A DNA stretch of 64,000 nucleotides from Squalus acanthias (Eukaryota): positions 135,906,001 to 135,970,000 of the forward strand of contig CM059431.1 of NCBI GenBank assembly GCA_030390025.1, written 5' to 3'. Below are positions 1,275 to 54,308 of the stretch, one piece after another. Position 1 is the first letter of the stretch; each line of letters opens with the position of its first letter. Made by a program: the position numbers and the translations under genes. The notes beneath the pieces were generated by a model. It searched no databases. It was not told where the DNA came from and was given only the letters and a program-made list of their open reading frames with translations.

Positions 1275-1787
1275 GGGGGAAAAATTCAGTTGGTTGCGCC
1301 TCCCGTTAGCGCCTTAAGAGGGCGCTAATGGGGCGCAAAGCAATTAGCGCCTGGGCGCAGCGATGTTTGCGCCGCTCGCGAACTTAACTAGACATTTTGC
1401 GGCGGCGCTAAACTTTACCGCCGCGATCTCCTGCGCACGCAGATCTTGATGTCATACGAGGGTGCAACGCCCTTGTGGCGCCCCGGAGCGGAAATTGAGT
1501 GGCGCCCCCATCCTTTCCGCCTGGCGCATCCAACGACCGGAAGACTGGAACGCTATCAGTCGCTGTGGGGCTGGGGGGGGGGCGCTATTTAAAGGGGGCC
1601 TCTTCCTGTCTTTCTCTGTGGTTGACATTTTTGCACCACTCGTTCTGAGAGAGAGAGAGAGATTCGGAGAGAGAGAAAGAGAGACTTCTGCATTGAGTCA
1701 ACGCTGTGTGAGGTAGTTTTGGCTACTGATCTTAACTTGGCAGGTAGTTTGGTTTTTGGCCTTCATAACTTTGCTTGCTAAGAGACT

Positions 1788-2831
1788 ATGGGGGCTGCAC
1801 TGATTGGGGGCGTCGTCCTGCTACAGCTGAATCGGAGGACACAGAGACGCAGAGAGAGAGTGGCAGAGAGAGAGTGGCAATGATGGCCAGACGGAGGAGG
1901 GCCAACAGGCGTATGTACAGGAGAGCTTACCCTCCCAGGGTATATCGTGAACAGCTCTCCTACATTCATATGTCTGAGGAGCAGTGTTTGCGAAGGCTGC
2001 GCTTCAGCAAGGAGGTAGTCACTGAGCTCTGCCACCTGCTGCAGCCAGATCTGCAGCCTCAACTGAGGTCCAGGACGTCTCTGTCGGTGGCAGTGAAGAT
2101 CACAGTGGCTCTGAACTTTTATGCTATTGGCTCATTTCAATCTGCTGCTGGGGACATCGCCAATTACTCCCAGTTCGCGGTGCATTGCTGCATCCGTCAG
2201 GTCACAAATGCCCTCTTTAAAAGGAGACGAGAGTACATCTCTTTCCCCATGACCCCAGACAAGCAGCATGAACGTGCTCTGGGCTTTGCGAGGATAGCGG
2301 GCTTCCCCATGGTGCAGGGCGCCATTGACTGCACGCATGTGGCTTTGCGTGCTCCGCATGAGAATGCCGAGGATTTCCGGAACAGAAAGGGGTTCCATTC
2401 CTTGAATGTTCAGTTGGTCTGTGACCACAGACAGCTGATACTCGCTGTCAATGCCCACTATCCTGGCAGCTGCCACGATGCTTTCATCCTGTGCCAGACT
2501 ACTGTGGCAGAACTTTTCGAGGCACCGCATCAGCCAGTTGGTTGGCTTCTCGGGGACAAGGGGTATCCACTGAGCACCTGGCTGATGACACCGCTCCGTA
2601 CTCCCAACACCCTGCTGAGCTGCGGTACAACGAGAGCCATCAAGCTACCAGGAACATCGTTGAGCACACAATCGGCGTGCTGAAGCAACGGTTCCGCTGT
2701 CTGGACCATTCTGGAGGAGCCCTGCAGTACTCGCCTGAGCGAGTTTCCCACTTCGTAGTTGTGTGCTGCATGCTGCATAACATGGCAATCCTCAGGACCC
2801 AGCCAATGCCACCAGGCCTTGGAGCACCACC

Positions 2832-2862
<31 letters not shown>

Positions 2863-2961
2863 GAGGAGGATGATCATCAGCAGCACCAAGGCGTGAGGGC
2901 GGCCCACAATGTTGAAACGGTAAGGGCCGTCCGTCAACGGCTGATAGCAAGCCGCTTCTAG
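1788..2961 (+). pseudogene. Harbinger (HARBI1-like) DDE transposase, frameshifted
   Basis: GAIDCTH, HDAFI, LLGDKGY and RNIVEHTIGVLKQRFRCL motifs. A ~14-bp duplication near 1851-1878 and a 1-bp loss near 2610 relative to the copy at 39694. Confidence 0.92.
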
Positions 2962-3259
2962 GCCCCTGCTGTGGAAATGGCTTCTGCCATTGAGAACAAC
3001 ATGAATGAAACTAACCTGCAACCCCTAAGCCGGCCAAGGCACCAATGATTCCAAACACCAAACATGTATATTTTGAATACAAAAACTTATTTATTTCACA
3101 AACTCTGTGTGTGTCATTTCCTCATGACAAACAAATAGAAAGAAACACAAAAACACAGTCATTAACAGAACTGGTTCTCATAACCTGGAGATAATGTCCA
3201 AAAGTTTGACCACGAACCTTAGCCTTTAATAAAAAAAAGACCAACATTTTGTCACACCT

Positions 3260-5112
3260 CCTACTTTTTGCCCTTCGAGGGTGATCTCCTTCCCTTGCGC
3301 ACTTCCCCCCTTCTTACCCTACTGCTCCTCTGTAATGGGACCTCAGTGGCTGCAGCAAGGCTGGTGGAAGGCTGCTGATTGTCAGAACCTGAGACTGCAG
3401 ATGCCCTTGAAGGACGGCCTCGACCAGCTCTGGCCTGGAGGGCCCGGCTGCAGACTGCACCAACTCTGCATGGGCGGCAGCAGTCTGTCCTACAGGCGGT
3501 GGCAAGTGCAGTGGAGAAGTGACAGTGGTGGCAGCAGGAATGCTGTCATCTTGAGAGAGGACAGCAACTCCCTGCTCGACCGACACACTGGCACTCCCAC
3601 GGGGCAGCACTTCAGCATCCGGAGCAATCTGCTGGAGCACAGATTGCTGGCCTGCTGCGGCACGGTGAGAGCCCCGGGGAAATGTGTACGAACCATCGAG
3701 GATGGCAGCAGTCAGTGCTCGCGTGGCCTCAATCTGAGTCTGCATGAGAGCAGTCTGAGACTGAATTGCAGCACTAAGCTTTAGTGTGGCATCCGCCTGT
3801 GCTACAGCGAAGTGCTCCACACTCCTTGCCAGTGATTCAATGCATTCGGGCACCCTTCCCACTGCACCCATGAGCTCAGTGTGCATGTCCACCGCCTGGG
3901 TGTTCATTTCAGCGATGAGCCGCTCCTCCTCTGCGTCCAGTGCAGTAGGAGTCGCTGGCATACTCTCCCTCCGGGGAGAAGGCACCCGTTCTTCCCTACC
4001 CCCATCGCGTTGCTGCAGCCCGCTGGGTCCTGGAGCTTCACCCTCATCAGACCCTTCCCCCCTGCTCCCCTCCAGGGAAGGCGTGTTCCCAGTGTGGGCA
4101 TGGGCTTCCTCGGGAGAGGGTGGCACTGATGCTCCGCCTTCATCTTCCTCCTCGCCTGCAGCTTCACTCCCACTGGCAGCTTGAAGGCCCGTCTCCTCAG
4201 CTGGTGAATCACCATCTGAAAGCAGGGAGGTACAAGAGTGGCTTTAGCGTGAGGACAGGGTGGCAGTAAGGGAGGAATAAGTGCAGCGATTTAGTAAGTT
4301 GGATTGAAAGTGTCAAAGGCTGGTGTTGTGATGGACAAGTGGAAGGACAGAGGACAAAAAGGTGATGACCTTACCATTGCTGTCCAGAACGGGGTCGGCG
4401 TCTCCAGTGGCGACGGGACCGATCACCCGGCTTGCCACAATCCTCTGGACGCGCGCCTCAAGATCGCTGAGGGGTTGCAGCTGAGGCCGCCCTCCACCCG
4501 TCCGTTGCTGCTGTCTCCTATTATGAGATAGCTTGGCCTGCAAGAAAAAGGACGGCGTCTGAGTAAATATACAGCCATGGTCTTGCCTGATGTGCCTCCC
4601 ATAGGTGAATAGCCCTTACTGTATGCAGCCATGGTCTTGCCTGATGTGCCTCCCATAGCTGAATAGCCCTTACTGTATGCAGCCATGGTCTTGCCTGATG
4701 TGCCTCCCATAGGTGAATAGCCCTTACTGTATGCAAAGTGTGGAATGTGTGTGTGTGTTTCATGAGAGGGCCATAGGTGTTGGATGAGTGTTGTGCATTG
4801 GGGATTTAAGACCCTCTGGCCATAGAGTGAGGTTGAGATGGAGGGATGGAGAGGTATTGAAAAAAAGCCACTCACCCTGACGACCCGAGTGAGGTCGTTG
4901 AACTTTTTTCGACATTGTATATGGGTCCTGGGCACCATGCTCCTGCAGGAGACGCTCTGAGCCACCTCCCTCCACACTCTTCTGTACTCGTGCGGCAAAG
5001 GCCTCCTGCCACTCTCAGGGAAGAGTATAGATCTTCTGCGCTCCACCGCGCCAACCAGAGCATCCAAGGCCCGCTCGCTGAAGCGCTGAGCTCGTTCTCT
5101 CACCGTCTCCAT
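3260..5112 (-). pseudogene. Harbinger Myb/SANT-like DNA-binding protein, 3 exons (5112-4876, 4537-4375, 4215-~3260), late frameshift
   Basis: W...RTHIQCRKKFNDL and RTGGG motifs (MSANTD/NAIF1-like); canonical GT-AG sites giving 237-nt and 163-nt exons in copies 1, 2 and 3; 1-bp deletion near 3432. Confidence 0.88.
4572..4735. repeat. 3 x 54-bp tandem repeat in Myb-gene intron 1
   Basis: CAGCCATGGTCTTGCCTGATGTGCC... recurs at 4572, 4626 and 4680. Confidence 0.9.
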
Positions 5113-5473
5113 AGTCCTTGGCTGGAAGATTTAGGCACAGGTCTCTCCAGGCTGAGATTCAAGACTCCAATGAGCAGGGTGTGGCTGGAGTGCAAGATCG
5201 ACCCTCCCCTTTAAGAACTGTCTGGCGCCAGTGTGTCTGTGTTCCATCGCTAACTGACAGCACCTGCGCTGCGCCCGCGCTCTGAGTTAGCGCCTCGCTC
5301 CTCGGCCTTTGCGCCTTAAGACAGGTGTGTAGCGCCTGATTTAGCGCTCCAATCACCTCCAGGGGCGTTAAAAGTCAAGTTTGCAGTCAGTGGCGATAAT
5401 TAGCGCCAGGCGCTAATCTTTGCGCATGGCCGATAATTGCACCCCAAATGGGGCGCGACTGAATTTCTCCCCC

Positions 5474-6290
5474 TTTGGCGCAGCGATGTTTGCGCCGCTC
5501 GGGAACTTAACTAGAGATTGTGCGGCGGCACTAAACTTTACCGCTGCGACCACCTGCGCGCGCAGTTTGTGACGTCATTCCATGGTGCAACGCCCTTGTG
5601 GCGCCCCGGAGCAGAAATTGAGTGGTGCCCCCTGCCTTACCGCCTGGCGCATCCAACGACCAGAAGACTGGAACGCTATCAATCGCTGTGGGGCTGGGGG
5701 GGGCGCTATTTAAAGGGGGCCTCTTCCTGTCTTTTATTGTTGGTGGCATTTTTGAACTACGCATTCTGAGAGAGAGAGGGAGAGACTTCTGGAGAGATTC
5801 AACGTTGTGTGAAGGAGTTTTGGGTACTGAGCAGCACTTTGCAGGTTCATTTTGATTTGCCAATCCTTGTATCGATTTAGCAGAGACTGTGGGAGCTGCA
5901 CTCTGAGCTCTTTGCCTGGTACTCTCCATTGTTCTTTCCAGCACATTTGATGTGCAAGTCTCTCCAGGCCGAGATTCAAGGCTGCAATGAACAGGATGTG
6001 CATGGAAAGCAAGATTAACCATCCCCTTTAAGAACTGGCCCGTGCCATTGTGTGTGTGTTCCATTGCTGACTGACATTACATGAGCTTTGCCAGCGCTCT
6101 GAGGTAGCGCCTCACTCCTTGGCCTTTGCGCCTTAAGACAGGTGTGCAGCGCCTGATTTAGCGCTCCACTCACCTCCCGGGGCGGTAAAAGTGAAGTTTC
6201 CAGTCAGTGCCGATAATTAGCGCCAGGCGCTAATATTTGCGTCCAGACGATATTTGCGCCCCAAATAGGGCGCGACCTAATTTTTCCCCC
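5474..6290 (+). mobile_element. Non-autonomous Harbinger A derivative lacking its first ~78 bp
   Basis: Similar to 22881..23774; right TIR ...CTAATTTTTCCCCC followed by ATA. Confidence 0.9.
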
Positions 6291-11619: not shown

Positions 11620-12980
11620 CAATCCGGTGCCCCGGGAGGTATGGAGGCTTGTGCTCCTGGGGCTCTCCGGGTCCGCGCAGGCAGAGCCCCACGTATCCCA
11701 GGGGCGCATGCGGTTCGCGAGCGCCCCTGGGATCACATGGGCCGGCCCAACCAATAAAAGAAGGGAATCCCCATTCATACTTCTGGGAGTTGCGTACGTA
11801 CAGAACTCCCATAAGTATGAATGGGGATCACTTAAAAAATACACAATACACATGTAATAATTTTGTTTTTAATTACATATTTAAAATTAATTAAAAAGCC
11901 ATTTAATTAAATTTTTTAAACGAAAATTTAAAATTTTTGGAAAAATAAAAATGGGTCAGAAATTCGGGTCTCCACGGGTGAGTACGCGCTGTGTACTCAC
12001 CCGTAGACCCAACGAAAGTGCCGTTTTCACGCATGCACTGCGCATGCGCTGGAAACCGGAACTTCCGTTCCCCTGAAGGAAGGGGTTCAGAGGTCGAACG
12101 CGTGCGCCGGAGAGGCAGCGCGCACGCAGCAAACTTCGGGTTTTTTTTCAGGTTTCTCCGTGAGGGTAAGTACGGAGAAGCTGCGCAGGAAAAAAGGAGG
12201 CGCAAGGCCTGCTTTTAACAAGGTAAGTGGTGAATTAAGTACAATTTAAACATTTTTTCAACAGGTTTATCTTTTTTACATACTTCAAAGAAAGGTAAGT
12301 TTATTTTTAGCACCGTTAAAAAGTGTAATTAATTTTTTCAAAAGTTTAAATTTTTGTTTAAAGTAGTTAATTTATGTAATTTATAGTTATTTTAAAAATG
12401 TGATGTTTTTTTTTAATTTATTTGAAGTTTTAGTGAGGTTTTGGGGCTGATCTCTATTCATAGATTGGACAGGTCTTCCTGTCAAAATCTATGAATGAAG
12501 ATTCCCTGCTCCGATTGGCTCTCCATGGCCCACGTGATCCCAGGGGACGCTTCGAACTAACTGCGCCCCTGGGATACGCAAGCACTGCGCGCCGGCAGCT
12601 GCAGGAGGCCCAGGAGCCGAATTCCACGCGGGCCTGAAGCACAACGGCAGGCGCGCTAGGTAAGTACATGCGCGATCCTTGCACCCGCGGGAAGCCGGAG
12701 AGCCAAATTTCTGGCCCAATGTATATGTTTTAACAGGGCTAAAAATAAACTTACCTTATTGGACAGTTTTTAATATATAAATAAGTGATAAAATTTTATT
12801 TTTCTATTTTTTAAAACTCTTATGCTGGTAAAAGCAGGCCTTATAGCGGGTGGAGGTTGGGCAAATAGCGCAACTCTCCACCCGCAGAGGCCCATCTCCC
12901 GGGGATGCAGAGGATCTGTCAAGAGGATTCTTAACAGATCGCAAGTTCCATGTTTTCGTGGGGATCGCAAAATATGGCCC
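11620..12980 (-). mobile_element. Non-autonomous Harbinger-type element (hairpin family), left end not found, interrupted by 11953..12717
   Basis: End ...GCAAAATATGGCCC; shares the ATCCCAGGGG/CCCCTGGGAT and ATTCATA/TATGAAT hairpins with the inner element in opposite orientation. Confidence 0.7.
11953..12717 (+). mobile_element. Non-autonomous Harbinger-type MITE (hairpin family), 765 bp
   Basis: TIRs GGGTCAGAAATT / AATTTCTGGCCC; perfect AAT target-site duplication. Confidence 0.92.
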
Positions 12981-18200: not shown

Positions 18201-18755
18201 TGTATAATTTTGGTCTCCTTACCTAAGGAAGGATATACTTGCCATAGAGGGAGTGCAACGAAGGTTCACGAGATTGATTCCTGGGATGGCGGGACTGTCG
18301 TATGAGAAGAGATTGAGTAAACTAGGCCTGTATTCTCTTGAATTCAGAAGAATGAGAGGGGATCTCATTGAAGCATACAAAATTATTACAGGGCATGATA
18401 GGATGGATGCTGGGAGAATGTATCCCTTAGCTGGAGAGTCTAGAACCAGGGGCCACAGCCTCAAGATAAAGGGTAGGCCATTCAGGACTGAGATTAGAAG
18501 AGATTTCTTCACACAGAGGGTGGTGAATCTTTGGAATTCTCTACCCCAGAGGGGTGTGGAGGCTCAGTCATTGGGTATATTCAAAACAGAAGTTGATAGA
18601 TTTCTGACTAGTAAGGGCATCAAGGGATATGGCGATAGGGCCAGTGAATGGAGTTGAGGCAGAAGATCAGCCATGATCTCATTGAATGGCGGAGCAGGCT
18701 CGAAGGGCCGAATGGCCCACTCCTACTCCTATTTCTTATGTTCTTATGTTCTTAT
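15300..18755 (+). mobile_element. 5'-truncated CR1 (ORF1 esterase end and complete but disrupted ORF2)
   Basis: APE motifs (LNARSI, GDFN, SDH), RT motifs (QGSVLGP, FADD); (TTCTTATG)n tail. Confidence 0.95.
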
Positions 18756-19019
18756 GGAGGCGGGATTGGGCCTGCCCGCCATTTCTTGCGATTTTACCAC
18801 CTCACGCCTCCAAACCCGCCTCCTCGTGCTTGGCAAAATCGAGCCCATTAAATCTGCTCCTGTGGTTTAGATGGATTCATAAGGGAAAGCCAGCTCGGAT
18901 ATGTTAAAGGCAAATCATGTCTGACTAACCTGACTGAGGTAGCATGGGATGTGTGAGACTTTGCCCAGAATGTATATTGAAGTGAGGTCCCTTCTCTCTA
19001 AACCTCCAGACCTTGACAT

Positions 19020-24600: not shown

Positions 24601-25468
24601 GCTGGAGTCATACCTAGCACAAAGGAAGATGGTTGTGGTTGCTGGAGACCAAATATCTCAGCCCCAGGACATCGCTGTAGGAGTTCCTCAGGGCAGTGTT
24701 CTAGGCCCAACCATCTTCAGCTGCTTCATCAATGACCTTCCCTCCATCATAAGCTTAGAAGTGGGGATGTTTGCTGATGATTGCACAGTGTTTAGTTCCA
24801 TTCGCAACTCCTCAGATAATGCGTGCAGCAAGACCTGGACAACATTGGGCTAATACGTTGCAAATAACATTCGCACTACACAAGTGCTAGGAAATGACCA
24901 TCACCAGCAAGAGAAAGTCTAACCACTTCCCCTTGACATTCAACGGAATTACCATCACTGAATCCCCCACCATGAATATCCTAGACCAGAAACTTAACTG
25001 GACCAGCCACATAAATACTGTGGCTACAACAGCAGGTCAGAGGCTGGGTATTCTGCAGTGAGTGACTCACCTGCTGACTCCCCAAAGCCTTTCCACCATC
25101 TACAAGGCTCAAGTCAGGAGTGCGATAGAATACTCTTCACTTGCCTGGATGAGTGGAGCTCCAACAACACTCAAGAATCTAGACACCACCCAGGACAAAG
25201 TAACCCGCTTGATTGGCACTCCATCCACCACCATAAACATTCACTCCCTCCACCATCGGAGCACCGTGGCTGCAGTGTGTACCATCTACAAGATGCACTG
25301 CAACTACTCGCCAAGAGTTCTTCAACAGCACCTCCCAAACCCGCGACTTATACCAACTAGAAGAACAAGGGCAGCAGGCACATAAGAACACCTCCACCTG
25401 CAAGATCCCCTCCAAGTCACACACCATCCTGATGTTGAAATATATTGCAGTTCCTTCATCGGCGCTGG
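21655..25468 (+). mobile_element. Second LINE family (CR1/L2 group, APE-RT), degenerate, with a tRNA-like 5' head
   Basis: [27 protein letters not shown] and FADD motifs; B-box-like GTTCAAATCC at ~21663. Confidence 0.8.
22881..23774 (+). mobile_element. Complete non-autonomous Harbinger A derivative (894 bp)
   Basis: Family A TIRs; AAG TSD on both sides. Confidence 0.93.
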
Positions 25469-25469
25469 A

Positions 25470-26576: not shown

Positions 26577-29500
26577 AAACATAGAAACATAGAAGATAGG
26601 AGCAGGATAGGCCATTCGGCCCCTCGAGCCTGCTCCGCCATTCGATGAGATCATGGCTGATCATCTAAACTCAGTACCCTGTACCTGCCTTCTCCCCATA
26701 TCCCTTGATACCTTTAGCTTTAAGAAATATATCTAACTCATTCTTGAATATATTTAATGACTTGGCCTCAACTACTTTCTGTGGTAGAGAATTCCACAGG
26801 TTCACCACTCTCTGGGTGAAGAAATTCTTCCTCATCCGTTATCCTTAGATTATGACCCCTGGTTCTGGACTCTCCGACCATCGGGAACATTCTTCCTGCA
26901 TCTAGTTTGTCCAGACCTGTCAGAATTTTATATGTTTCGATGAGATCCCCTCTCATTCTTCTATACTCCAGTGAGTATAAGCCCAATCGACCCAATCTCT
27001 CCTCATATGTCATTCCTGCCATCCCAGGTATCAGCCTTGTGAATCTTCGCTGAACTCCTTCCGTGGCAAGAGCATCCTTCCTCAGATAAGGCGACCAAAA
27101 CTGCACACGGTACTCAAGGTGTGGTCTCACCAAGGCCCTGTACAACTGCAGCAGGACATCCCTGTTCCTCTACTCAAACCCTTTTCACTATGAAGGCCAA
27201 CATACCATTTCCTTTCTTCACCGCCTGCTGCACCTGCATGCTTACCTTCAGCGACTGGTGCACAAGGACACCCAGGTCTCATTGCACTTCCCCTTCTCCC
27301 AATCTATTGCCAAATCAGATAATAGTCTGCCTTTCTGTTTTTGACACCAAAGTGGATAACCTCGCATTTATCCATGCTTCTGCCCATTCACCCAACCTGT
27401 CCAAATCATACTGGAGTTTCTCGGTATCCTCCTCGCAGCACACACGCCCGCCCAGCTTTGTGTCATCTGCAAACTTGGTGATGGTGACCCAAAAATTCGT
27501 GAGGAAGCCTTCGTGCGAGGGTAAGGCTTCCCCACGATCTCTCACTGCGCGTTGGCTTTTTCAGTTCCAGCTCGCACGAACTTGATGTTCTGGACAGCTG
27601 CTGTGCTGGGCTTGCGTATCCCACAGGCGTAGTTAATTCGTGCGAGCTGTGGGATCACGTGACTCAGTTAGAGCCAATGGCAGCACACCATCTTCCATTC
27701 ATAACTTTCACATAAGTGCTGTGAAAGCTATGAATACTATAGCCCCCCAAAAGAACAGCTAAACCTCAATTAAATTTGTTTTAAAAACCATCACATTAAT
27801 AAAATAAGTATAGTTAAATAAATTAACCATTTTAAATAAAAAATTAAATTTTTGAAAAAATTAAAAATCTTTTAAAAAGTTATAAAAATAAACTTACCTG
27901 TCTTTAAAGTCTCTAAAAAAGATATACCTGTTAAAAAAAATTCAAAATAATACTTAATTAAGTACTTACCTTGTTAAAAGAGGGTCTTACGCCTCCTTTC
28001 TTTATGTCTAAAATCTTCCATACTTACCTGCGTGCGCAAAGCACTAAGTGCACTGCCTGCGCGCAGCCTGTAGTGGGCACGCGGTTCCCTGAGGAACCGC
28101 CCCCTTTTCCATTCACCAAGTGCCGGTTTCCAGTGCATGCGCAGTGCATGCAGAAAACCGGCAATTGGAGACAGAATACGCGAGAGTACACAGTGCGTAC
28201 TCTCGCGTAGCGGCACTAATTTTTGGGCCATTACATTTAGTTCCCTTATCTAGATCATTAATGTATATTGTGAATAGCAGGGGTCCAAGGACCGATCCCT
28301 GCGGTACCCCACTAGTCACTGCCTGCCACTCGGAAAAAGACCCATTAATTCCTACTCTCTGCTTTCTGTCCGCCAACCTGTTCTCTATCCAAGTCAATAC
28401 CTTGCCCCCAATCCCATGTGCCTTAACTTTACACGCTAATCTCTTATGCGGGACCTTATCGAAAGCCTTTTGAAAGTCCAAATACACCACATCTACTGGT
28501 TCTCCCTTATCTATTTTCCCAGTTACATCCTCAAAAAATTCCAGTAGATTAGTCAAGCACAATTTACCTTTTGTAAATCCATGTTGACTTTGTCCGATCC
28601 TGTCACTGTTTTTCAAGTGCTCAGCTATTACATCCTTTATAATGGACTCTAGCATTTTCCCCACTACCGATGTCAGGCTTACCGGTCTGTAATTCCCCGC
28701 TTTCTCTCTACCACCCTTTTTGAATAGTGGGGTAACATTAGCTACCCTCCAATCCATGGGTACAGTTCCAGATTCCATCGAATGTTGGAAGATGATCAGC
28801 AATGCATCTACTATTTCGAGGGCCACTTCCTTAAGTACCCTAGGATGTAGGTTATCAGGCCCTGGGGATTTATCGGCCTTCAATCCCGTCAATTTCCCTA
28901 ACACCATTTCCCTGCAAATACTGATTTCTTTCAGTTCCTCCCTCTCATCAGACCCTATGTTCTCCAACATCTCTGGGAGGTTATTTGTGTCCTCCTTTGT
29001 GAAGACAGAACCAAAATATGCATTTAATTGGTCTGCCATTTCTTTGTTCCCCATTATAACTTCCCCCGCTTCTGACTACACTTGATTTCACTAATCTTTT
29101 TCTCTTCACATATCTATAAAAGCTTTTACAGTAAGTTTTTATGTTCCCTGAAAGCTTACTTTCATATTCTATTTTCCCCTTCTTAATTAATCCCTTTGTC
29201 CTCCTTTGTTGAATCCTAAACTGCTCCCAATCCTCAGGGTTACTGCTTTTTCTGGTCAATTTATATGCCCTCTCCTTGGATCTTATGCTATCTCTAATTT
29301 CCCTTGTTAGCCATGGTTGAGTCAGCCTTTTTGTTTTATTCTTATGCCACACTGGGATGAACAAATTCTGAAGTTCATCCATGCGGTCTTTGAATGTTTG
29401 CCATTGCCTATCCACCGTCAACCATTTGAGTGACATTCCCCAATCAATCCTACCCAATTCGCGCCTCATACCATCGTAGTTTCCTTTATTTAAATTCAGG

Positions 29501-30022
29501 ACCCAAGTCTCTGATTCAACTACTTCACTCTCCATCCTAATGAAGAATTCTATCATATTATGATCACTCTGACCCAAGGGGCCTCGTCCAAAAAGATTGC
29601 TCATTAATCCTTTCTCGTTACATAATACCCACTCTAAGATGGCCTGATCTCTGGTTGGTTCCTCAACATATTGTTCCAGAAAACCATCCCGTAAACATTC
29701 TAGGAATTCCTCCTCCACAGTATTTTTACTAATTTGGTTAACCCAATCTATATGTAAATTAAAGTCACCCATGATGACTGCTGTGCCCTTACTGCATGCT
29801 TCTCTAATTTCCCTTTTAATGCCGTCCCCAACATCCGTATTACTGTGTGGAGGTCTATACACCACTCCCACTAACGTTTTCTGCCCCTTGTTATTTCTCA
29901 GTTCAACCCATACAGATTCCGCATCATCAGAGCTAATATCCTTCCTTTCAATTGTGTTAATCCCCTCTTTAACCAGCAATGCTACCCCACCTCCCTTTCT
30001 TTTTTGCCTATCTTTCCTAAAT
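26577..30022 (-). mobile_element. 5'-truncated CR1 inserted in the minisatellite; close relative of the 31480 copy
   Basis: ORF2 motifs in ORFs 26768, 28113 and 28981; reverse tail (ATAGAAAC)n. Confidence 0.93.
27486..28229 (-). mobile_element. Divergent hairpin-family MITE within the CR1 RT domain
   Basis: TIRs GACCCAAAAATT / AATTTTTGGGCC; interrupts KGTKCN^ISKFADD. Confidence 0.88.
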
Positions 30023-31479
30023 ATAGCCTGGGGAGGGACGGGGGTAGAATCCCAGTATTGCCTGGGGAGGGACGGGGGTAGACTCCCAGTATAGTCTGGG
30101 GAGGGACGGGGGTAGACTCCCAGTATAGTCTGGGGAGGGACAGGGGTATACCCCCAGTATAACCTGGGGAGGGACGGGGGTAGACTCCCAGCATAGTCTG
30201 GGGAGGGATGGGGGTAGACTCCCAGTATAGTCTGGGGAGGGACAGGGGTAGAATCCCAGTATAACCTGGGCAGGGACGGAGGTAGACTCCCAGTATAACC
30301 TGGGGAGGGACGGGGGTAGACTCCCAGTATAACCTGGGGAGGGACGGGGGTAGACTCCCAGAAAAGTCTGGGGAGGGACGGGGGTAGACTCCCAGTATAG
30401 TCTGGGGAGGGACGGGGGTAGAATCCCAGTATAAACTGGGGAGGGACGGGGGTAGACTCCCAGTATAGTCTGGGGAGGGACGAGGGTAGAATCCCAGTAT
30501 AAACTGGGGAGGGACAGGGGTAGACTCCCAGTATAGTCTGGGGAGGGACGGGGGTAGACTCCCAGTATAGTCTGGGGAGGGACGGGGGTAGACTCCCAGT
30601 ATAGTCTGGGGACGGACGGGGGTAGAATCCCAGTTTAACCTGGGGAAGTAATGAAGGAGAATGCTGACATAATCTGAGGAAGGAATGATGGAGAGGAATG
30701 TGTAACCTGGGGAAGGAAGGATGAAGAACAAACCCAGTATAAACTGGGGAAGGAAGGAAGGAAGGAGAATAATCCCAGTATAACCTTGAATTGAAGCAGG
30801 GTAAAGAATGCCAGTATAGCATGTGGAAGGAAGGAGGGAGAAGAATTCCAGGATCACCTGGGGAAGGAAGGAGGAGAGAATCACAGTCTAACCTGGGGAA
30901 GGAAGGAGGGGAGAATCACAGTCTAACCTGGGGAAGGAAGGAGGAAGAATGCCGATATAAATTGGGGAAAAATGGAGGGGAAAAAAATCCCATTAATCCT
31001 TGAAAAGCCAGGTGGGTGAAGAATCTCAGTATAACCTGGTTAAGCAAGGAGGGAGAAAAATCCCAGTATAGTTGAGGACGGAAGCACGGAGTAGGGTCCT
31101 AGTATAAACCTGCAGAAGGAATGGGTGATAATGCCAGTAGGTCCATGGGAAGGAAGGAGGAATACGAATCCCAGTATAAACTGGGGAAGGAAAGATGGAT
31201 AAGGATCCCAGTATAACTTAGGGAAGGAAGGAAGAAAATGACAGTATAATCTATTAATGGAAGGAGGAAAAAATGCCAGTACGACCTTGGGAAGGAATGA
31301 GGGAAACTGCCAGTAGATCCATGGGAAGGAATGAGGGAGACTAATCCCAGTATAACCTGAAGAAGGAAGGAGCAAATTTGCCAGCATAACCTGCAGAAGG
31401 AAGGAGGGAAAATCATAGTATAACCTGGGGAAGGAGGGAGCAAGTTGGCCAATATAACCTGCGAAGGAAGGAGGGAGTA
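30023..31479. repeat. 34-bp minisatellite: ~18 homogeneous copies to ~30645, then degenerate units (resumes 36031-36180)
   Basis: Same unit as 25470, grading into the GGAAGGAAGG variant. Confidence 0.9.
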
Positions 31480-36945: not shown

Positions 36946-37387
36946 GGGGGAGAAATTGAGTGCCTTTGCGCCTCTCATTAGCGTCTCCGGGGGCACCAAC
37001 GAGGCGCTACCAGCTTTGCGACTGGGAGCGGTGCAAGTACCGACAGCTGCGAGATTGAGCTGGAGGTTTGCATCATCCAGGTGCGCAGTGCCCTGGCAGC
37101 GCCCTGGCTCAGAAATTCACTCTCACGCCCTGCCTGAGCGCCTGCCATTAGCAACGACAGGTACAGGAGGCGGTTTGCAGTCAGATGAGTGCTGGAGGAG
37201 CGCTATATAAAGGGGTCAACTTCCGGGTATTTTTTGTCTGCAAACAATGCTGCCTTGTCAGTTTGACACAAGCAGACAGGCGTTTTGACCCATTTGACAG
37301 TTTTCAACTTGAAGGAGTATTCTGGCTGAGAAAAATGTATCACTTTCATTTGGGTTACATTTGATAGTGCAACATTTCCATCATTTA

Positions 37388-38555: not shown

Positions 38556-39693
38556 AATGATATATCACATGGCATTTGCGCAGCACAACCACATCATTAC
38601 ATCAAGCTCAATCCAGGGCATTCTGGAGGGGGAGGGTGAACAGCCAGTTGTCGTGGTGCATATAGGTACCAACGATACAGGTAAAAAACGGGATGAGGTC
38701 CTAAAAGCTGAATATAGGGAGTTAGGAGGTAAATTAAAAAATAGGACCTCAAAGTTAGTAATCTCAGGTTTGCTACCAGTGCCACGTGCTAGTCAGAGTA
38801 GAAATAGAAGGGTATTTCAGATGAATACGTGGCTAGAGGAATGGTGCAAGGGGGAGGGATTCAAATTCCTGGGACATTGGAACTGGTTCTGGGGGAGGTG
38901 GGACCAATACAAACTGGCGGTTTGCACCTGGGCAGGACCTGGACTGATGTCCTAGGGGGAGTGTTTGCTAGTGCTGTTGAGGAGGGTTTAAACTAAAATG
39001 GCAGGGGGTTGGGAACCTGTGCAGGGAGACAGAGGAAAGGGAAGCAAGGATAGAATCAAAAGACAGGAAGGAGAAAAGCAAAAGTGGAAGGCAGAGAAAT
39101 CAAGGGTGTAAATCAAACAGGGCCACAGTAAATAATAATTCTAAAAGGACTAAGAGTGGTAAAAAAAACAAGCCTGAAGGCTTTGGGGTAAAAATTCAGT
39201 TGGTTGCGCCTCCCGTTAGCGCCTTAAGAGGGCGCTAATGGGGCGCAAAGCCGCTAACGCCCGGGCGCAGCGATGTTTGCGCCGCTCGGGAACTTAACTA
39301 GAGATTGTGCAGCGGCGCTAAACCTTACCGCTGCGACCACCTGCGCGCGCAGATTATGACGTCATTCCATGGTGCAACGCCCTTGTGGCGCCCCGGAGCG
39401 CAAATTGAGTGGCGCCCCCTGCCTTACCGCCTGGCGCATCCAACGACCGGAAGACTGGAATGCTATCAATCGCTGTGGGGCTGGGGGTGGCGCTATTTAA
39501 AGGGGGCCTCTTCCTGTCTTTTTCTGTGGTCGACATTTTTGCACCACTCGTTCTGAGAGAGAGAGAGATTCGGAGAGAGAGAAAGAGAGACTTCTACATT
39601 GACTCAACGCTTTGTGAGGTAGTTTTGCCTATTGATCCTAACTTCGCTGGTACTTTAGTTGCTGTCCTTCATTACTTTGCTTGCAAAGAGAAT

Positions 39694-40854
39694 ATGGGGG
39701 CTGCACTGATTGGGGGCGTCGTCCTGCTCCAGCTGAATCGGAGGATACAGAGACGCAGAGAGAGAGTGGCAATGATGGCCAGACGGAGGAGGGCCATCAG
39801 GCGTATGTACAGGAGAGCTTACCCTCCCAGGGTATATCGTGAACAGCTCTCCTACATCCATATGTCTGAGGAGCTGTGTTTGCGAAGGCTGCGATTCAGC
39901 AAGGAGGTGGTCACTGAGCTCTGCCACCTGCTGCAGCCAGATCTGCAGCCTCAACTGAGGTCCAGGACGTCTCTGTCGGTGGCAGTGAAGGTCACAGTGG
40001 CTCTGAACTTTTACGCTACTGGCTCATTTCAAGCTGCTGCTGGGGACCTCGCCAATATCTCCCAGTTCGCGGTGCATTGCTGCATCCGTCAGGTCACAAA
40101 TGCCCTCTTTAAAAGGAGACGAGAGTTCATCTCTTTCCCCATGACCCCAGACAAGCAGCGTGACCGCGCTCTGGGCTTTGTGAGGGTAGCGGGCTTCCCC
40201 ATGGTGCAGGGCGCCATTGACTGCACGCATGTGGCTTTGCGTGCTCCGCATGAGAATGCCGAGGAATTCCGGAACAGAAAGGGGTTCCATTCCTTGAATG
40301 TCCAGTTGGTCTGTGACCACAGACAGCTGATACTCGCTGTCAATGCCCAGTATCCTGGCAGCTGCCACGATGCTTTTATCCTGCGCCAGACTACTGTGGC
40401 AGAACTTTTCGAGGCACCGCATCAGCCAGTTGGTTGGCTTCTCGGGGACAAGGGGTATGCATTGAGCACCTGGCTGATGACACCGCTCCGTACGCCCAAC
40501 ACCCCTGCTGAGCTGCGGTACAATGAGAGCCATCAAGCTACCAGGAACACCGTGGAGCGCACAATCGGCATGCTGAAGCAACGGTTCCGCTGTCTCGACC
40601 ATTCTGGAGGAGCCCTGCAGTACTCGCCTGAGCGAGTATCGAACTTCGTAGTCGTGTGCTGCATGTTGCATAACATGGCAATCCTCAGGACCCAGCCAAT
40701 GCCACCAGGCCTTGGAGCACCACCAGAGGAGGAGGAGGAAGAGGAGGAAGAGGACGCGGAGGATGATCATCAGCAGCACCAAGGCGGGAGGGCAGCCCAC
40801 AATGGTCAAACTGCAAGGGCCGTCCGTCAACGGCTAATAGCAAGCCGCTTCTAG
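39694..40854 (+). CDS. Intact Harbinger DDE transposase (~386 aa)
   Basis: Uninterrupted frame MGAALIGG...RLIASRF* with GAIDCTH, HDAFI, GDKGY and RNTVERTIG; TATTTAAA box at ~39494 upstream. Confidence 0.92.
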   Translation: MGAALIGGVVLLQLNRRIQRRRERVAMMARRRRAIRRMYRRAYPPRVYREQLSYIHMSEELCLRRLRFSKEVVTELCHLLQPDLQPQLRSRTSLSVAVKVTVALNFYATGSFQAAAGDLANISQFAVHCCIRQVTNALFKRRREFISFPMTPDKQRDRALGFVRVAGFPMVQGAIDCTHVALRAPHENAEEFRNRKGFHSLNVQLVCDHRQLILAVNAQYPGSCHDAFILRQTTVAELFEAPHQPVGWLLGDKGYALSTWLMTPLRTPNTPAELRYNESHQATRNTVERTIGMLKQRFRCLDHSGGALQYSPERVSNFVVVCCMLHNMAILRTQPMPPGLGAPPEEEEEEEEEDAEDDHQQHQGGRAAHNGQTARAVRQRLIASRF

Positions 40855-41148
40855 GGCCCCTGCCATTGCTAACAACATTAATGAACCCAGCACGCAACCC
40901 CTAAGCCGGCCAAGGCACCAATAATTCCAACCACCAACCATGTATATTTTGAATACAGAAACTTATTTATTTTACAAACTCTGTGTGTGTCAATTCCTCA
41001 TGACAAACTCATAGAAATAAACACAAAAAAACAGTCAATAACATAACTGGTTCTCACAACCTGGAGATAATGTCCAAAACACTAAACAAAAGTTGGACCA
41101 TGAACCTCGACCTTTAATAAAAAAATGACCAGCATTTTGTCACACCTC

Positions 41149-42973
41149 CTACTTTTTGCCCTTCGAGGGTGATCTCCTTCCCTTGCGCACTTCCCCCCTT
41201 CTAACCCTACTGCTCCTCCGTAATGAGACCTCAGTGGCTGCAGCAAGGCTGGTGGAAGGCTGCTGCTCGTCAGACCCTGACACTGCAGATGCCCCTGAAG
41301 GACGGCCTCGACCACTTCTGGGCCTGGAGGGCCCGGCTGCAGACTGCACCAACTCTGCATGGGCGGCAGCAGTCTGTCCTACAGGCGGTGGCAAGTGCAG
41401 TGGAGAAGTGACAGTGTTGGCAGCAGGAATGCTGTCATCGTGAGAGAGGACAGCAACTCCCTGCTCGCCCGACACACTGGCACTCCCATGGGGCAGCACT
41501 TCAGCATCCGGAGCAATCTGCTGGAGAACAGATTGCTGGCCTGCTGCGGCGCGGTGACAGCCCCGGGGACATGTGCACGAACCATCGAGGTTGGCAGCAG
41601 TCTGTGCTCGCGTGGCCTCAATCTGAGTCTGTATGAGAGCAGTCAGAGATGGGATCACGGCAGCCAGTGACTGAATTGCAGCACTAAGCGTTAGTGTGGC
41701 ATCCGCCTGTGCTACAGCGAAGTGCTCCACACTCCTTGCCAGTGACTCAATGCATTCGGGCACCCTTCCCACTGCACCCATGAGCTCAGTGTGCATGCCC
41801 ACCGCCTGGGTGTTCATTTCTGCGATCAGCCGCTCCTCCTCTGCGTCCATTGCAGTAGGAGTGTCTGGCATACTCTCCCTCTGGGGAGAAGGCCCCCGTT
41901 CTTCCCTACCCCCCCCCCCCATGGCGTTGCTGCAGCCTGCTGGGTCCTGGAGCTTCACCCTCATCAGACCCTTCCCCCCTGCTCCCCTCCAGGGAAGGCG
42001 TGTTCCCAGTGTGGGCATGGGCTTCCTCGGGAGAGGGTGGCACTGATGCTCCGGCTTCCTCTTCCTCCTCAGCTGCAGCATCACTCCCAGTGGCAGCTTC
42101 AGGGCCCGTCTCCTCAGCTGGTGAATCACCATCTGAAAGCAGGGAGGTACAAGAGTGGCTTTAGCGTGAGGACAGGGTGGCAGTAAGGGAGGAATAAGTG
42201 CAGCGAGTTAGCAAGTTGGATTGAAAGTGTCAAAGGCTGGTGTTGTGAGGGACAAGTGGAAGGACAGAGGACAAAAAGGTGATGACCTTACCATTGCTGT
42301 CCAGAACGGGGTCGGCGTCTCCAGTGGCGACGGGACCGATCACCCGGCTTGCCACAATCCTCTGGACGCGCTCCTCCAGATCGCTGAGGGGTTGCAGCTG
42401 AGGCCGACCTCCACCTGTCCGTTGCTGCTGTCTCCGATTATGCGCCAGCTTGGCCTGTAAGAAAAAGGACAGCATCTGAGTAAATATACAGCCATGGTCT
42501 TGCCTGATGTGCCTCCCATAGGTGAATAGCCCTTACTGTATACAGCCATGGTCTTGCCTGATGTGCCTCCCATAGGTGAATAGCCCTTACTGTATGCAAA
42601 GTGTGGAATGTGTGTGTGTTTCATGAAAGGGCCATAGGTGTTGGATGAGTGTTGTGCATTGGGGTTTTAAGACCCTCTGGCCATAGAGTGAGGTTGAGAT
42701 GGAGGGATGGAGAGGTATTGAGAAAAAGCCACTCACCCTGACGACCCGAGTGAGGTCGTTGAACTTTTTGCGGCATTGAGTATGGGTCCTGGGCACCATG
42801 CTCCTGGAGGAGACGCTCTGAGTCACCTCCCTCCACACTGTTCTGAACTCGCGTGGCAAAGGCCTCCTGCCACTCTCAGGGAAGAGCATACATCTTCTGC
42901 GCTTGACCGCGCCAACCAGAGCATCCAAGGCCCGCTCGGTGAAGCGATGAACGCGTTCTCTCACCCTCTCCAT
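41149..42973 (-). CDS. Harbinger Myb/SANT-like protein, 3 exons (42973-42737, 42454-42292, 42132-41149), single +1 frameshift at C12 run
   Basis: GT-AG sites conserved; spliced length 1384 nt (3n+1); C12 at 41909-41920 versus C5 in other copies. Confidence 0.8.
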
Positions 42974-45283
42974 CCTTGGCAGCAAAATGGATTCACAGGT
43001 CTCTCCAGGCCGAGATTCAAGGCTGCAATGAGCAGGGTGTGGCTGGGGAGCAAGTTGGCCCCCCCCGCTTTAAGAAGTGGCCGGCACCAGTGTGTCTGTG
43101 TTCCCTCGCTAACTGGCAGCAGCTGCGCTGCGCTCGCGCGCTGAGTTAGCGCCTCACTCCTTGGCCTTTGCGCCTTAAGACAGGTGTGCAGCGCCTGATT
43201 TAGCGCTCCACTCACCTCCCGGGGCGGTAAAAGTGAAGTTTCCAGTCAGTGCCGACAATTAGCGCCAGGCACTAATATTTGCGTCCAGACGATATGTGCG
43301 CCCCAAATGGGGCGCGACCTAATTTTTACCCCTTTGTGTCTTAATTCGAGGAGCATTTGTAATAAGGTGGATGAATTAGCTGCGCAAATAGATGTAAATG
43401 GATATGATATAATTGGGATTACGGAGACATGGCTCCAGGGTTACCAAGGCTGGGAATTCAACATCCAGGGGTATTCAATATTCAGGAAGGACAGGCAAAA
43501 AGGAAAAGGAGGTGGGGTAGCATTGCTGGTTAAAGAGGAGATTAACACAATAGTAAGGAAGGTTATTAGCTCTGATGATGTGGAATCTGTATGGGTAGAG
43601 CTGAGAAATACCAAGGGGCAGAAAACATTAGTGGGAGTTGTATACAGACCCCCAAACAGTAATGCTGAGGTTGGGGATGGCATTAAATGGGAAATTAGAG
43701 ATGCGTGCAATAAGGGCACAGCAGTTATCATGGGTGACTTTAATCTATATATAGATTGGGCTAACCAAATTAGTAACAATACTGTGGAGGAGGAATTCCT
43801 AGAGTGTATACGAGATAGTTTCCTGGACCAATATGTCGAGGAACCAACTAGAGATCAGGTCATCTTAGACTGGGTATTATGTAATGAGAAAGGATTAATT
43901 AGCAATCTTGTTGTGCGAGGCCCCTTGGGGAAGGGCGATCATAATATGATAGAATTCTTCATTAAGATGGAGAGTTAAGTAGTTGACTCAGAGACTAGGG
44001 TCCTGAATTTAAATAAAGGAAACTACGATGGTATGAGGCGCAAGTTGGCTAGGATGGACTGGGGAGCATTACTTAAAGGGTTGATGGTGGATAGGCAATG
44101 GCAAACATTTAAAGATCGCATGGATGAACGACAGAATTTGTTCATCCCTGTTTGATATAAAAATAAAACAAAAAAGGTGACTCAACCGTGGCTAACAAGG
44201 GAAATTAGGGATAGCATAAGATCCAAGGAGAGGGCACATAAATTGGCCAGAAAAAGCAGCAAACCTGAGGATTGGGAGCAGTTTAGGATTCAGCAAAGGA
44301 GGACAAAGGGATTAATTAAGAGGGGGAAAATAGAGTATGAGAGTAAGCTTGCAGGGAACATAAAAACTGACTGTTAAAGCTTCTATAGATATGTGAAGAG
44401 AAAAAGATTGGTGAAGTCAAGCGTAGGTCCCTTTCAGTCAGAATCAGGGGAATTTATAATGGGGAACAAAGAAATGGCCGACCAATTAAATACATACTTT
44501 GGTTCTGTCTTCACAAAGGAGGACACAAATAACCTCCCAGAGATGTCGGGGAACATAGGGTCTAATGAGAGGGAGGAATTGAATGAAATCAGTATTTGTA
44601 GGGAAATGGTGTTAGGGAAATTGATGGGATTGAAGGCCGATAAATCCCCAGGGCCTGATAATCTACATCCTAGGGTACTTAAGGAAGTGGCCCTAGAAAT
44701 AGTAGATGCATTGCTGGTCATCTTTCAAAATTCTGTAGACTCTGGAACAGTTCCCATGAATTGGAGGGTAGCTAATGTAACCCCACTATTTAAAAAAGGT
44801 GGTAGAGAAAAAACGGGGAATTATAGACCGGTAAGCCTGACATCGGTACTGGGTAAAATGCTAGTGTCCATTATAAAAGATGTAATAGCAGAGCACTTGG
44901 AAAACAGTGACAGGATCGGAGAAAGTCAACATGGATTTACAAAAGGTAAATCATGCCTGACTAATCTACTGGAATTTTTTGAGGATGTAACTGGTAGAAT
45001 AGATAAGGGAGAACCAGTAGATGTGATGTATTTGGACTTTCAGAAAGCTTTCGATAAGGTCCCGCATAAGAGATTAGCGTGCAAAGTTGAAGCACATGGG
45101 ATTGGGGGTTAGGTACTGATTTGGATAGAGAACTGGTTGGCAGACAGCAAGCAAAGAGTTGGAATAAACAGGTCTTTTTCCGAGTGGCAGGCAGTGAGTA
45201 GTGGGGTACCGCAGGGATCGGTGCTAGGACCCCAGCTATTCACAATATATATTAATGATATAGACGAGGGAACTAGATGCAAT

Positions 45284-46045
45284 GGGCCAGAAATTCGGCA
45301 CTTGCCGGGTGAGTACGCACTGTGTACTTACCCGTAAGGCCAGCTGAAGTGTCGGTTTCCTGCATGCACTGCGCATGCGTGGGAAACCGCAACATCCGTT
45401 CCCCTGAAGGGAGGGGTTCAGAGGTGAACCGTGTGCGTGGGAGAGGCTGCGCACACGCAGCGAATTTCGGGTTTTTTTCAGGTTTCTCCGGGAAGGTAAG
45501 TATGGAAGAAGCTGCGCTTTTAAAAAGGAGGCGCAAGACCCATTTTTAACAAGGTAAGTGGTTAATTAATTACAATTTAAAAAAAATTTCAACAGGTTTA
45601 TCTTTTTTAGATACTTTAAAGAAAGTTAAGTTTATTTTTAGCACTGTTAACAAGTATTTTAATTTTTCAAAATTGTAAATATTTGTTTAAAGTAGTTAAT
45701 TTATTTAACTTAGTTATTTTAAAAATGTGATGGTTTTTTTTTAATTTATTTGAAGTTTAGGTGTTGTTTTGGGGCCGATTTCAATTCATAGATTTGACAG
45801 GTCTTCCTGTCAAATCTATGAATGAAAAATGGTCTGCTGCCATTGGCTCCCCATGGCCCACGTGATCCCAGGGGACGCATCGCACTAACTACGCCACTGG
45901 GATTCACAAGCACTGCGCACCGGCAGCTGCAGGAGGCCCAGGAGCTGAAGTCCCCGTGGGCCCAGAGGTCAACGGCAGGCGCGGTAGGTAGGTGCGCGTG
46001 TGATCCTTGCACCCGCGGGAAGCCAGGGAGCCGAATTTCTGGCCC
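45284..46045 (+). mobile_element. Hairpin-family MITE within the CR1 RT domain
   Basis: Perfect TIR GGGCCAGAAATTCGGC; AAT/ATT flanks; colinear with 11953..12717. Confidence 0.92.
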
Positions 46046-46196
46046 ATTACTCTAAGTTTGCAGATGACACAAAGCTGGGTGGGGGTGTGTGCTGTGAGGA
46101 GGATGCAGAGAAACTCCAGTATGATTTGGACAGGTTGGGTAATTGGGCAGATGCATGGCAGATGCAGTATAATGTGGATAAATGCGAGATAAATGC

Positions 46197-54012: not shown

Positions 54013-54308
54013 GAGGTGTGACAAAATGTTGGTCATTTTTTTATAAAGGCCGAGGTTCATGGTCAAACTTTTGTTTAGTGTTTTGGACATTATCTCCAGG
54101 TTGTGAGAACCAGTTATGTTAATGACTGTTTTTTTGTGTTTCTTTCTATTAGTTTGTCATGAGGAAATGACACACACAGAGTTTGTAAAATATTCAAAAT
54201 GTACATGTTTGGTCTTTGGAATCATTGCTGCCTTGGCCGGCTTAGGGGTTGCGGGTTGGTTTCATTCATGTTGTTCTCAATGGCAGAAGCCATTTCCTCA
54301 GCAGGGGC

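What the first reader, a model, noticed from the sequence alone, without database searches (positions are those of the whole stretch)
11953..12717. Non-coding element family conserves several hairpins through compensatory changes
Seen across up to four copies (11620, 11953, 27486, 45284). Stem 1: ACGGGTGAGTAC/GTACTCACCCGT (11974-12004) becomes TACGCGAGAGTAC/GTACTCTCGCGTA (28177-28209), with the 7-nt loop GC(A/G)CTGT kept. Stem 2: ATTCATA...TATGAAT encloses three different but still paired inner stems (12456-12496 and 45784-45823; 27697-27735; 11767-11828). Stem 3: ATCCCAGGG/CCCTGGGAT becomes ATCCCACAG/CTGTGGGAT (~27618). Inference: structure rather than sequence is maintained, pointing to a structured RNA or ssDNA/cruciform cargo in a DNA transposon. 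This is the best candidate here for an undescribed system, especially given the same-site insertions.
Basis: partly seen in the sequence, partly recalled or inferred. Interest (0 to 1): 0.75.

Follow-up and report, generated by a model that had tools for sequence, protein, structure and literature searches.

The report
Shark mini-transposon with co-mutating hairpins
A very abundant, non-coding jumping DNA element in what is likely a shark or ray genome carries a row of hairpins whose two arms changed together between subfamilies, likely because one arm gets copied onto the other while the element multiplies, not because it makes a working RNA.

Summary
11953-12717 (A) is a 765-bp non-coding element with 12-bp terminal inverted repeats and an AAT duplication. 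Relatives sit at 45284 (C) and 27486 (B). 11620 (D) is a more distant, older element that A splits. The ends match the window's autonomous Harbingers at 10 of 12 bases (DDE transposase plus Myb gene, best hits all sharks and rays), and 16,230 contigs of one run lay on A. It is a PIF/Harbinger-type MITE. Between the A/C lineage and B, 8 of 71 stem pairs changed on both arms and still pair (0.7 expected); A versus C shows none above chance. The RNA reading is weak: no Rfam match, both strands fold alike as DNA, the G·T bias is not significant, and 6 of 8 double changes are transversions, like the lineage background. B and C do share one CR1 site, but family flanks are diverse (CR1 flank 0-5% of end depth) and no loop matches the target. 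Best reading: arm-to-arm template switching in the mobile lineage (0.55). Selection on DNA fold-back or binding sites (0.28) and a functional RNA (0.1) remain open.

The parts
11953..12717 (+). Copy A of the Harbinger-type MITE, 765 bp, non-coding (longest ATG ORF 71 aa)
11950..11952 (+). [quoted passage not shown]
   Evidence: junction table
12718..12720 (+). Right copy of the AAT duplication
11953..11964 (+). Left terminal inverted repeat GGGTCAGAAATT
12706..12717 (-). Right terminal inverted repeat GGGCCAGAAATT (10 of 12 identical to the autonomous Harbinger end GGGGGAGAAATT)
11974..12004 (.). Hairpin 1 (12 bp, 7-nt loop); 2 double changes in B; in A extended by GGGTCT/AGACCC
12016..12064 (.). 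Hairpin 2, around GCATGC-ACTGC-GCATGC; pair at columns 78:96 is C-G in A, T·G in C, T-A in B
12084..12127 (.). Hairpins 3 and 4 (short); 1 double change in B
12165..12665 (+). Four GGTAAGT motifs (12165, 12222, 12294, 12659), all on one strand; 0.05 expected; three kept in B
12208..12440 (.). AT-rich core, the best-conserved part between subfamilies (15% different, against 23-41% elsewhere)
12456..12496 (.). Stem 2 (ATTCATA...TATGAAT); in C a perfect 18-bp stem; A departs from the family majority at 12467 and has an extra A near 12484
12537..12575 (.). Stem 3 (ATCCCAGGGG/CCCCTGGGAT); 2 adjacent double changes in B
45284..46045 (+). Copy C, 85% identical to A, inserted in CR1 reverse transcriptase just before the FADD motif; flanks AAT/ATT
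27486..28229 (-). Copy B, a separate subfamily (69-70% identical to A and C), at the same CR1 nucleotide; flanks AAT/ACC
11620..12980 (-). Older relative D (11620-11952 plus 12721-12980), split by A; shares the AT core and stems 2 and 3; one terminal repeat GGGCCATATTTT at 12980, other end not found
   Evidence: (joints that skip A)
26608..30024 (-). CR1 LINE hosting B
   Evidence: RVT_1
43332..46188 (+). CR1 LINE hosting C
39185..43332 (.). Context: autonomous two-gene Harbinger (DDE_Tnp_4 on +, Myb/SANT on -), TTT duplication; sisters at 1275-5473 and 51898-55967. Shares only the end motif with the MITE, so it is not shown to be the partner

Best explanation
This is a high-copy, non-coding miniature transposon with terminal inverted repeats and a 3-bp duplication, likely moved by a Harbinger transposase and its Myb partner, whose internal hairpins changed on both arms between subfamilies, likely because one arm is copied onto the other by template switching while the mobile lineage is re-copied. 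Shown: ends, duplication at A, lack of coding, hairpin excess, 8 double changes on the A/C-versus-B branch, one-sided decay in inserted copies, diverse flanks. Inferred: mobilisation in trans by a Harbinger not present in this window; repeated copying by gap repair after excision (recalled from P-element and similar work, not tested); fold-back of the new strand that turns a one-arm mutation into either a reversion or a double change and leaves the loop as it was. The repeated CR1 site is inferred to follow from an extended sequence preference around T-AWT-A meeting a very common LINE.
For: Ends match the window's Harbingers at 10 of 12 bases, and those carry 3-bp duplications ATA, TTT, AAG, TTT. 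16,230 contigs of run X3 lay on A. Double changes are clustered (columns 25/27, 595/596, 516/520), and D has a wholly rewritten inner stem 2; multiple parallel changes with the loop kept are what PMC8794818 expects of intrastrand template switching (passages). Six of 8 double changes are transversions, matching the lineage background (109 of 158 differences) and unlike host CR1 decay (27 of 74); rRNA shows 61% double transitions (PMC8794818 section 8; P=0.044). As DNA both strands fold alike (z -8.5/-9.0, -8.6/-8.4, -8.2/-7.0, -4.1/-3.9, -9.4/-11.3). Most excess folding energy stays when G·U is forbidden. C's G·T in stem 1 is private: at least 99.6% of depth reads C in all four runs. Unrelated element E and the autonomous Harbinger ends are also hairpin-rich.
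Against: Template switching was not observed; one branch and three copies cannot separate it from selection. Stems diverged less than the rest (23 of 142 positions against 138 of 502), and neutral arm-copying alone would not lower that rate, although stems were chosen for being recognisable. Loops are conserved and none is inverted. The + strand folds at least as well as the - strand with G·U in 8 of 8 segments (several by under 2.5 kcal/mol; a CR1 control also differs by 9), whole copy C gives z -13.4 against -8.8, and G·T outnumbers A·C 18 to 7 (P=0.085; 13 to 7 without one AT-rich stem, P=0.30). In B's core stems one-sided changes are 3 G·T, 0 A·C, 4 other. The duplication is imperfect at B and C. 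No cognate transposase was identified.
Confidence: 0.55

Rival explanations
1. Same Harbinger MITE, but the symmetry is selected at the DNA level: fold-back or cruciform DNA, or paired binding sites for the Myb protein or host factors, make a copy more likely to be excised or re-copied, so lineages that keep pairing win. Template switching may supply the double changes.
For: The order of hairpins is kept over about 30% divergence, and stems 2 and 3 are kept in D. Stems diverge less than other parts. Loops and GGTAAGT motifs are conserved. The Myb protein of Harbinger3_DR binds a 9-bp subterminal motif (PMC9710019 passage). Short motifs recur in both orientations (CTGCGCA, AGTGCC).
Against: Arms change sequence freely, which a protein site should resist. 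The stems share no single motif. Right-end hairpins are rebuilt in B rather than kept. No functional data.
Confidence: 0.28
2. The + strand is transcribed into a structured non-coding RNA that matters to the element (protection from silencing, scaffold for the Harbinger proteins), with GGTAAGT acting as U1-binding splice-donor motifs.
For: Mild + strand bias. No variant reaching 10% is listed at columns 78 or 96 when contigs are laid on C, so T·G looks like the majority state there. Four GGTAAGT on one strand against 0.05 expected.
Against: No Rfam family: 0 at gathering score over 64 kb; 12 weak hits at E 0.06-0.84, far below their cut-offs. Double changes are mostly transversions. The G·T excess is not significant. 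The T·G at 78:96 is also part of the palindrome TGCGCATGCGC. GGTAAGT occurs in both orientations in element E. Donor motifs lie only 57-72 bases apart.
Confidence: 0.1
3. A guided, site-specific system: the variable parts direct insertion to the CR1 reverse-transcriptase site, as bridge or seek RNAs do in IS110/IS1111.
For: B and C, only 70% alike, sit at the same nucleotide of CR1 copies whose 5' flanks are 92% alike, so the insertions are independent.
Against: CR1-flank depth is 0.18%, 1.3%, 5.4% and 0% of end depth in four runs, and loose flanks agree at only 0.4-0.47. The longest exact match between any copy and the CR1 flanks is 5-9 bases. A sits elsewhere. Another Harbinger family also hits one CR1 site twice (39185 and 61031). 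Extended target preference is known for Harbingers.
Confidence: 0.02
4. The double changes are an artefact of picking stems after the fact, of alignment, or of symmetric CpG decay.
For: Helices were chosen by eye; n=3; pair 78:96 is a double transition in a CpG setting.
Against: The held-out test still gives 9-11 against 2.5-4.5. Six of 8 are transversions, which CpG decay does not make. B-type and A-type sequences appear as shared loose-end consensuses in several runs.
Confidence: 0.05

Closest known systems
Tourist-like MITEs of the PIF/Harbinger superfamily: mPing with Ping/Pong; zebrafish Harbinger3N_DR with Harbinger3_DR (PMC2836001, PMC3016246, PMC9710019, PMC9179366: passages read; the primary paper PMC2290759 is not held)
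   Same: Non-coding, short terminal inverted repeats, 3-bp duplication, extended target preference, two-gene autonomous relatives (DDE transposase plus Myb) in the same genome.
   Different: Target centred on AWT rather than CWG or TWA; 12-bp ends, shorter than the 25-50 bp given in PMC9179366; an internal array of hairpins with double changes, which those passages do not mention; cognate transposase not identified.
Harbinger-N12A_XT of Xenopus tropicalis (PMC12676858, passages read; its Supplementary Figure S1 not seen)
   Same: Vertebrate Harbinger MITE, thousands of copies, terminal repeats plus internal repeats of palindromic nature, NRF-type sites reported.
   Different: 342 bp against 765 bp; no compensatory change reported in the passages read; sequence similarity not tested.
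Template-switch maintenance of hairpins in rRNA and microRNA genes (PMC8794818: passages and section 8 read)
   Same: Several double changes within a stem, stem extension, loop kept.
   Different: There the RNA structure is also under selection; here no RNA function is shown, and the word transposon does not occur in that paper.

Membership tests
PIF/Harbinger MITE | Short terminal inverted repeats like those of autonomous Harbingers | tested here: met
   GGG(T/C)CAGAAATT at both ends; 10 of 12 identical to GGGGGAGAAATT of the DDE+Myb elements
PIF/Harbinger MITE | 3-bp target-site duplication | tested here: met
   Exact AAT/AAT at A; imperfect at C (AAT/ATT) and B (AAT/ACC), so 1 of 3 exact. 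Family flank consensus fits T-AAT or T-ATT (the offset is my reading)
PIF/Harbinger MITE | No coding capacity | tested here: met
   Longest ATG ORFs 68-74 aa; the one 100-aa ORF overlapping A has no Pfam hit
PIF/Harbinger MITE | High copy number, dispersed | tested here: met
   16,230, 5,048, 2,663 and 651 contigs laid in four runs; diverse flanks
PIF/Harbinger MITE | Extended target-site preference | tested here: inconclusive
   Two independent hits at one TAATA site in CR1; flank consensus only at -4
PIF/Harbinger MITE | Cognate autonomous element sharing subterminal sequence | tested here: inconclusive
   No blastn hit better than E 0.14 to the five Harbinger stretches in the window; no genome held
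PIF/Harbinger MITE | Mobilised by transposase plus Myb protein; Myb binds a subterminal motif | not testable with these tools
   needs a cell assay
Known structured ncRNA (Rfam) | Match to a covariance model at gathering score | tested here: not met
Structured ncRNA (new) | Covariation beyond phylogeny | tested here: inconclusive
   8 double changes, all on one branch of three sequences
Structured ncRNA (new) | One-strand G·U tolerance; double transitions dominate | tested here: inconclusive
   G·T 18 against A·C 7, P=0.085; only 2 of 8 double transitions
Structured ncRNA (new) | Discrete stranded transcript | not testable with these tools
   only unstranded contigs were available
RNA-guided insertion (bridge/seek RNA, OMEGA; features recalled, papers seen only as search listings) | One target per element, matched by a loop | tested here: not met
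   diverse flanks; longest match to CR1 flanks 5-9 bases
SINE (features recalled) | tRNA/5S/7SL-derived head and 3' tail, no terminal inverted repeats | tested here: not met
   no tRNA, no Rfam hit, inverted ends present
Helitron/Helentron non-autonomous element (features recalled) | No duplication, asymmetric ends with a 3' hairpin | tested here: not met
   symmetric ends and AAT duplication

The most novel reading that the evidence does not exclude
Shark Harbinger MITEs are selected for an ordered single-strand structure: the + strand, as RNA or exposed DNA, folds into an array of hairpins around an AT-rich core with repeated U1-type GGTAAGT motifs, and this fold is needed for mobilisation or for escape from silencing. 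That would be a structural cis- or RNA-component of cut-and-paste transposition that I did not find described for this superfamily.
Probability: 0.15. Interest if true: 0.7.

Novelty: new member of a known kind. Interest (0 to 1): 0.3.

Why it matters
As a family it is an ordinary Harbinger MITE. Its use is as a test case: a repeat with very many copies and several subfamilies lets one measure whether compensatory stem changes can pile up by template switching without RNA selection, which is a caution for covariation-based RNA discovery. It would also show whether internal DNA structure helps MITEs spread. It adds to evidence that Harbingers are abundant in sharks and rays, which PMC9179366 left open after finding none in elephant shark. 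I found no paper on this family or on compensated hairpins in Harbinger MITEs; Repbase and Dfam could not be searched and may already hold it.

Tried and rejected
No genome is held for the window, so only three copies plus D were available. Pattern scans found nothing in viral contigs or metagenome contigs. Run search: no RNA holder listed; the runs marked 'RNA?' are guesses, and their contigs (X12, X15) show neither strand nor expression, so I use them for nothing on transcription. Summed contig depth (1e5-1.6e6 over A in X3) is not a copy number; it only indicates a very high one. RNAalifold on three copies gave about the same number of double changes on either strand (30 of 229 pairs on +, 31 of 203 on -), and many of these are spurious long-range pairs, so I did not use them. 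No covariance model was built: three sequences are too few. The bacterial promoter/terminator scan was at chance level and is not apt for a vertebrate. Loop inversion, the strongest sign of template switching, was looked for by eye in alignments A1 and A2 and not seen. B and C as one duplicated insertion was rejected: elements 70% alike, 5' flanks 92% alike. D as a fourth copy was rejected: its left part shows no alignment to A. Look-ups of earlier findings by sequence, by seven words and near this place were empty. The primary Harbinger3_DR paper is not held.

Full report
Setting. The window is repeat-dense vertebrate DNA: CR1 LINEs (RVT_1) and two-gene Harbinger transposons with a DDE_Tnp_4 transposase (E 2e-40) and a convergent Myb/SANT gene. 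The best relatives of that transposase are from sharks and rays (Pristiophorus 66%, Narcine, Mobula, Heptranchias), so the host is likely an elasmobranch. No genome is held.

Anatomy. Copy A (11953-12717) has ends GGGTCAGAAATT / GGGCCAGAAATT and an exact AAT duplication. C (45284-46045) is 85% identical to A; B (27486-28229, minus strand) is 69-70% identical to both. D is a more distant element on the minus strand. A lies inside it: both halves match A's AT core and right-hand stems, and contigs in two runs join across A's place (table 5). D's left part does not align with A. The longest ATG ORFs are 68-74 aa. There is no tRNA and no Rfam hit. The ends match the autonomous Harbinger end GGGGGAGAAATT at 10 of 12 bases, and those elements carry 3-bp duplications (ATA, AAG, TTT, TTT; one imperfect). 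Beyond the ends there is no similarity (best E 0.14), so the partner transposase is not shown. The stretch is held by 20 listed runs under six organism codes in 7 studies, 8 of them with half its words or more, and 16,230 contigs of run X3 lay on it. This is a high-copy Harbinger-type MITE.

The observation. In six core helices, 71 of 73 pairs could be scored: B keeps 56, changes both arms and still pairs in 8, and changes one arm in 7 (0 of 100,000 permutations reach 8; one search agrees). Because I chose those helices after seeing the copies, I also ran a held-out test: stems found in one copy alone give 9-11 double changes in 101-103 pairs between A/C and B (2.5-4.5 expected) and 0-2 between A and C (0.9-1.9 expected). 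Population data show that inserted copies decay on one side: C's G·T in stem 1 is private, and A's G at 12467 departs from 99% of depth. A-type and B-type sequences recur as loose-end consensuses in several runs, so they are subfamilies. Compensation is thus a property of the mobile lineage.

RNA or DNA. As DNA both strands fold alike in five regions. With G·U forbidden most of the excess energy remains. Six of the 8 double changes are transversions, as are 109 of 158 lineage differences, while host CR1 flanks show 27 of 74. In rRNA 61% of instantaneous compensatory changes are double transitions (PMC8794818 section 8); 2 of 8 here gives P=0.044. The changes cluster, and D has a wholly rewritten inner stem 2 with a longer outer stem, patterns that paper ties to template switching. 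Against this: the + strand folds at least as well in 8 of 8 segments with G·U allowed (some by very little, and a CR1 control also differs by 9 kcal/mol); C as a whole gives z -13.4 against -8.8; G·T outnumbers A·C 18 to 7 (P=0.085); T·G appears to be the majority state at one pair; stems diverged less than the rest (23 of 142 against 138 of 502); no loop is inverted; and GGTAAGT occurs four times on the + strand (0.05 expected). These keep a selected structure open but do not show one.

Same-site insertion. B and C lie at the same nucleotide of CR1 (TGTAAT^ATCTCC in the intact copy near 35078) and are independent, since the elements are 70% alike and their 5' flanks 92%. But laid on C's junction, the CR1 flank has 0.18%, 1.3%, 5.4% and 0% of the depth of the element end in four runs, and 41 and 62 loose flanks in X3 agree at only 0.4. 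Depth is a crude measure and C's flank has private bases that may clip junction contigs, so these may be underestimates. The loose flanks end in a way that fits T-AAT or T-ATT, and the CR1 site is TAATA. No copy matches the CR1 flanks over more than 9 bases. A second Harbinger family also hits one CR1 site twice (39185, 61031). Extended target preference is a known trait: 15 bp in vertebrates (PMC2836001) and AAACACCWGGTCTTT for Harbinger3_DR (PMC3016246).

Mechanism. Most likely (0.55): a Harbinger transposase and Myb protein excise and insert the element at AWT sites (inferred); the lineage multiplies through repeated repair copying (recalled, not tested; template switches during gene conversion are mentioned in PMC9262586); the new strand folds back and copies one arm from the other, which yields clustered, transversion-tolerant double changes with loops kept; inserted copies then decay. 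Rivals: selection on DNA fold-back or paired binding sites (0.28), functional RNA (0.10), artefact (0.05), guided targeting (0.02).

Known kin and novelty. Closest are Tourist-like PIF/Harbinger MITEs and Xenopus Harbinger-N12A_XT, which also has internal palindromes (PMC12676858; its supplementary figure was not seen and may bear on how alike they are). I found no paper on this family or on compensated hairpins in such MITEs; repeat databases were not searchable. Papers were seen as follows: PMC8794818 passages and section 8; PMC9179366, PMC9710019, PMC3016246, PMC2836001, PMC12676858, PMC9262586 and PMC5753468 passages only; all others search listings only. Earlier AI notes from this scan describe what is probably the same family elsewhere in this genome; they are leads, not support. 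Labels such as NRF1, ETS, CCAAT, E-box and splice donor are recalled, not from a call. Verdict: real observation, new member of a known kind, interest 0.3.

Noticed in passing
window 58320-59164: A second, unrelated Harbinger-like MITE (E, 845 bp; ends GGGCAGAATT / GGGCTGGATTTT, TAT/TAT duplication) in a CR1 tail repeat; 7 perfect hairpins in 58480-59164 against 0.18 expected, and GGTAAGT in both orientations.
   Followed up: partly
window 12165, 12222, 12294, 12659; 45495, 45553; 27892, 27964, 28022; 12749; 58688, 58701, 58730: The splice-donor consensus GGTAAGT (label recalled) recurs in A, B, C, D and E next to AT-rich DNA; 13 of the window's 19 occurrences outside one stem-1 match lie in these elements or are listed here as such. 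Unexplained: protein site, U1 site or relic of 5' introns.
   Followed up: partly
window 39185-43332 and 61031-62255: An autonomous Harbinger and its short derivatives sit at the same CR1 site (GAAGGC-TTT-GTGTCT) with TTT duplications.
   Followed up: partly
window 27483-27485 and 46046-46048: The right-hand duplication is replaced or altered at B (ACC for AAT) and C (ATT plus a 1-base loss), although B's host CR1 is 98% identical to an intact copy.
   Followed up: partly
window 39709-40854 and 41149-43069: Harbinger with an open transposase frame and Myb gene; sisters at 1275-5473 and 51898-55967 are 88-91% identical, so the family is young.
   Followed up: partly
window 1275-6290 and 61031-62255: Head-to-tail or nested Harbinger structures: an autonomous copy followed by a short derivative lacking its first 80 bases, and a partial copy before a full short derivative.
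   Followed up: no
alignment A1 (A/C versus B): Lineage differences are transversion-rich (109 of 158) and highest at the ends (29% left, 41% right, 15% in the AT core), unlike host CR1 decay.
   Followed up: partly
window 12031-12066, 12516-12536: Promoter-like motifs recalled from memory (TGCGCATGCGC, ACTTCCG, ATTGG, CACGTG) lie in or beside the hairpins; some symmetry may come from such sites.
   Followed up: no
window 25327-26676 and about 29895-30900: Long 34-bp tandem arrays inside or beside CR1 copies.
   Followed up: no
window 18755-18846, 36946-38422, 47844-50032, 7593: Further Harbinger-like ends and decayed autonomous elements of other families.
   Followed up: no
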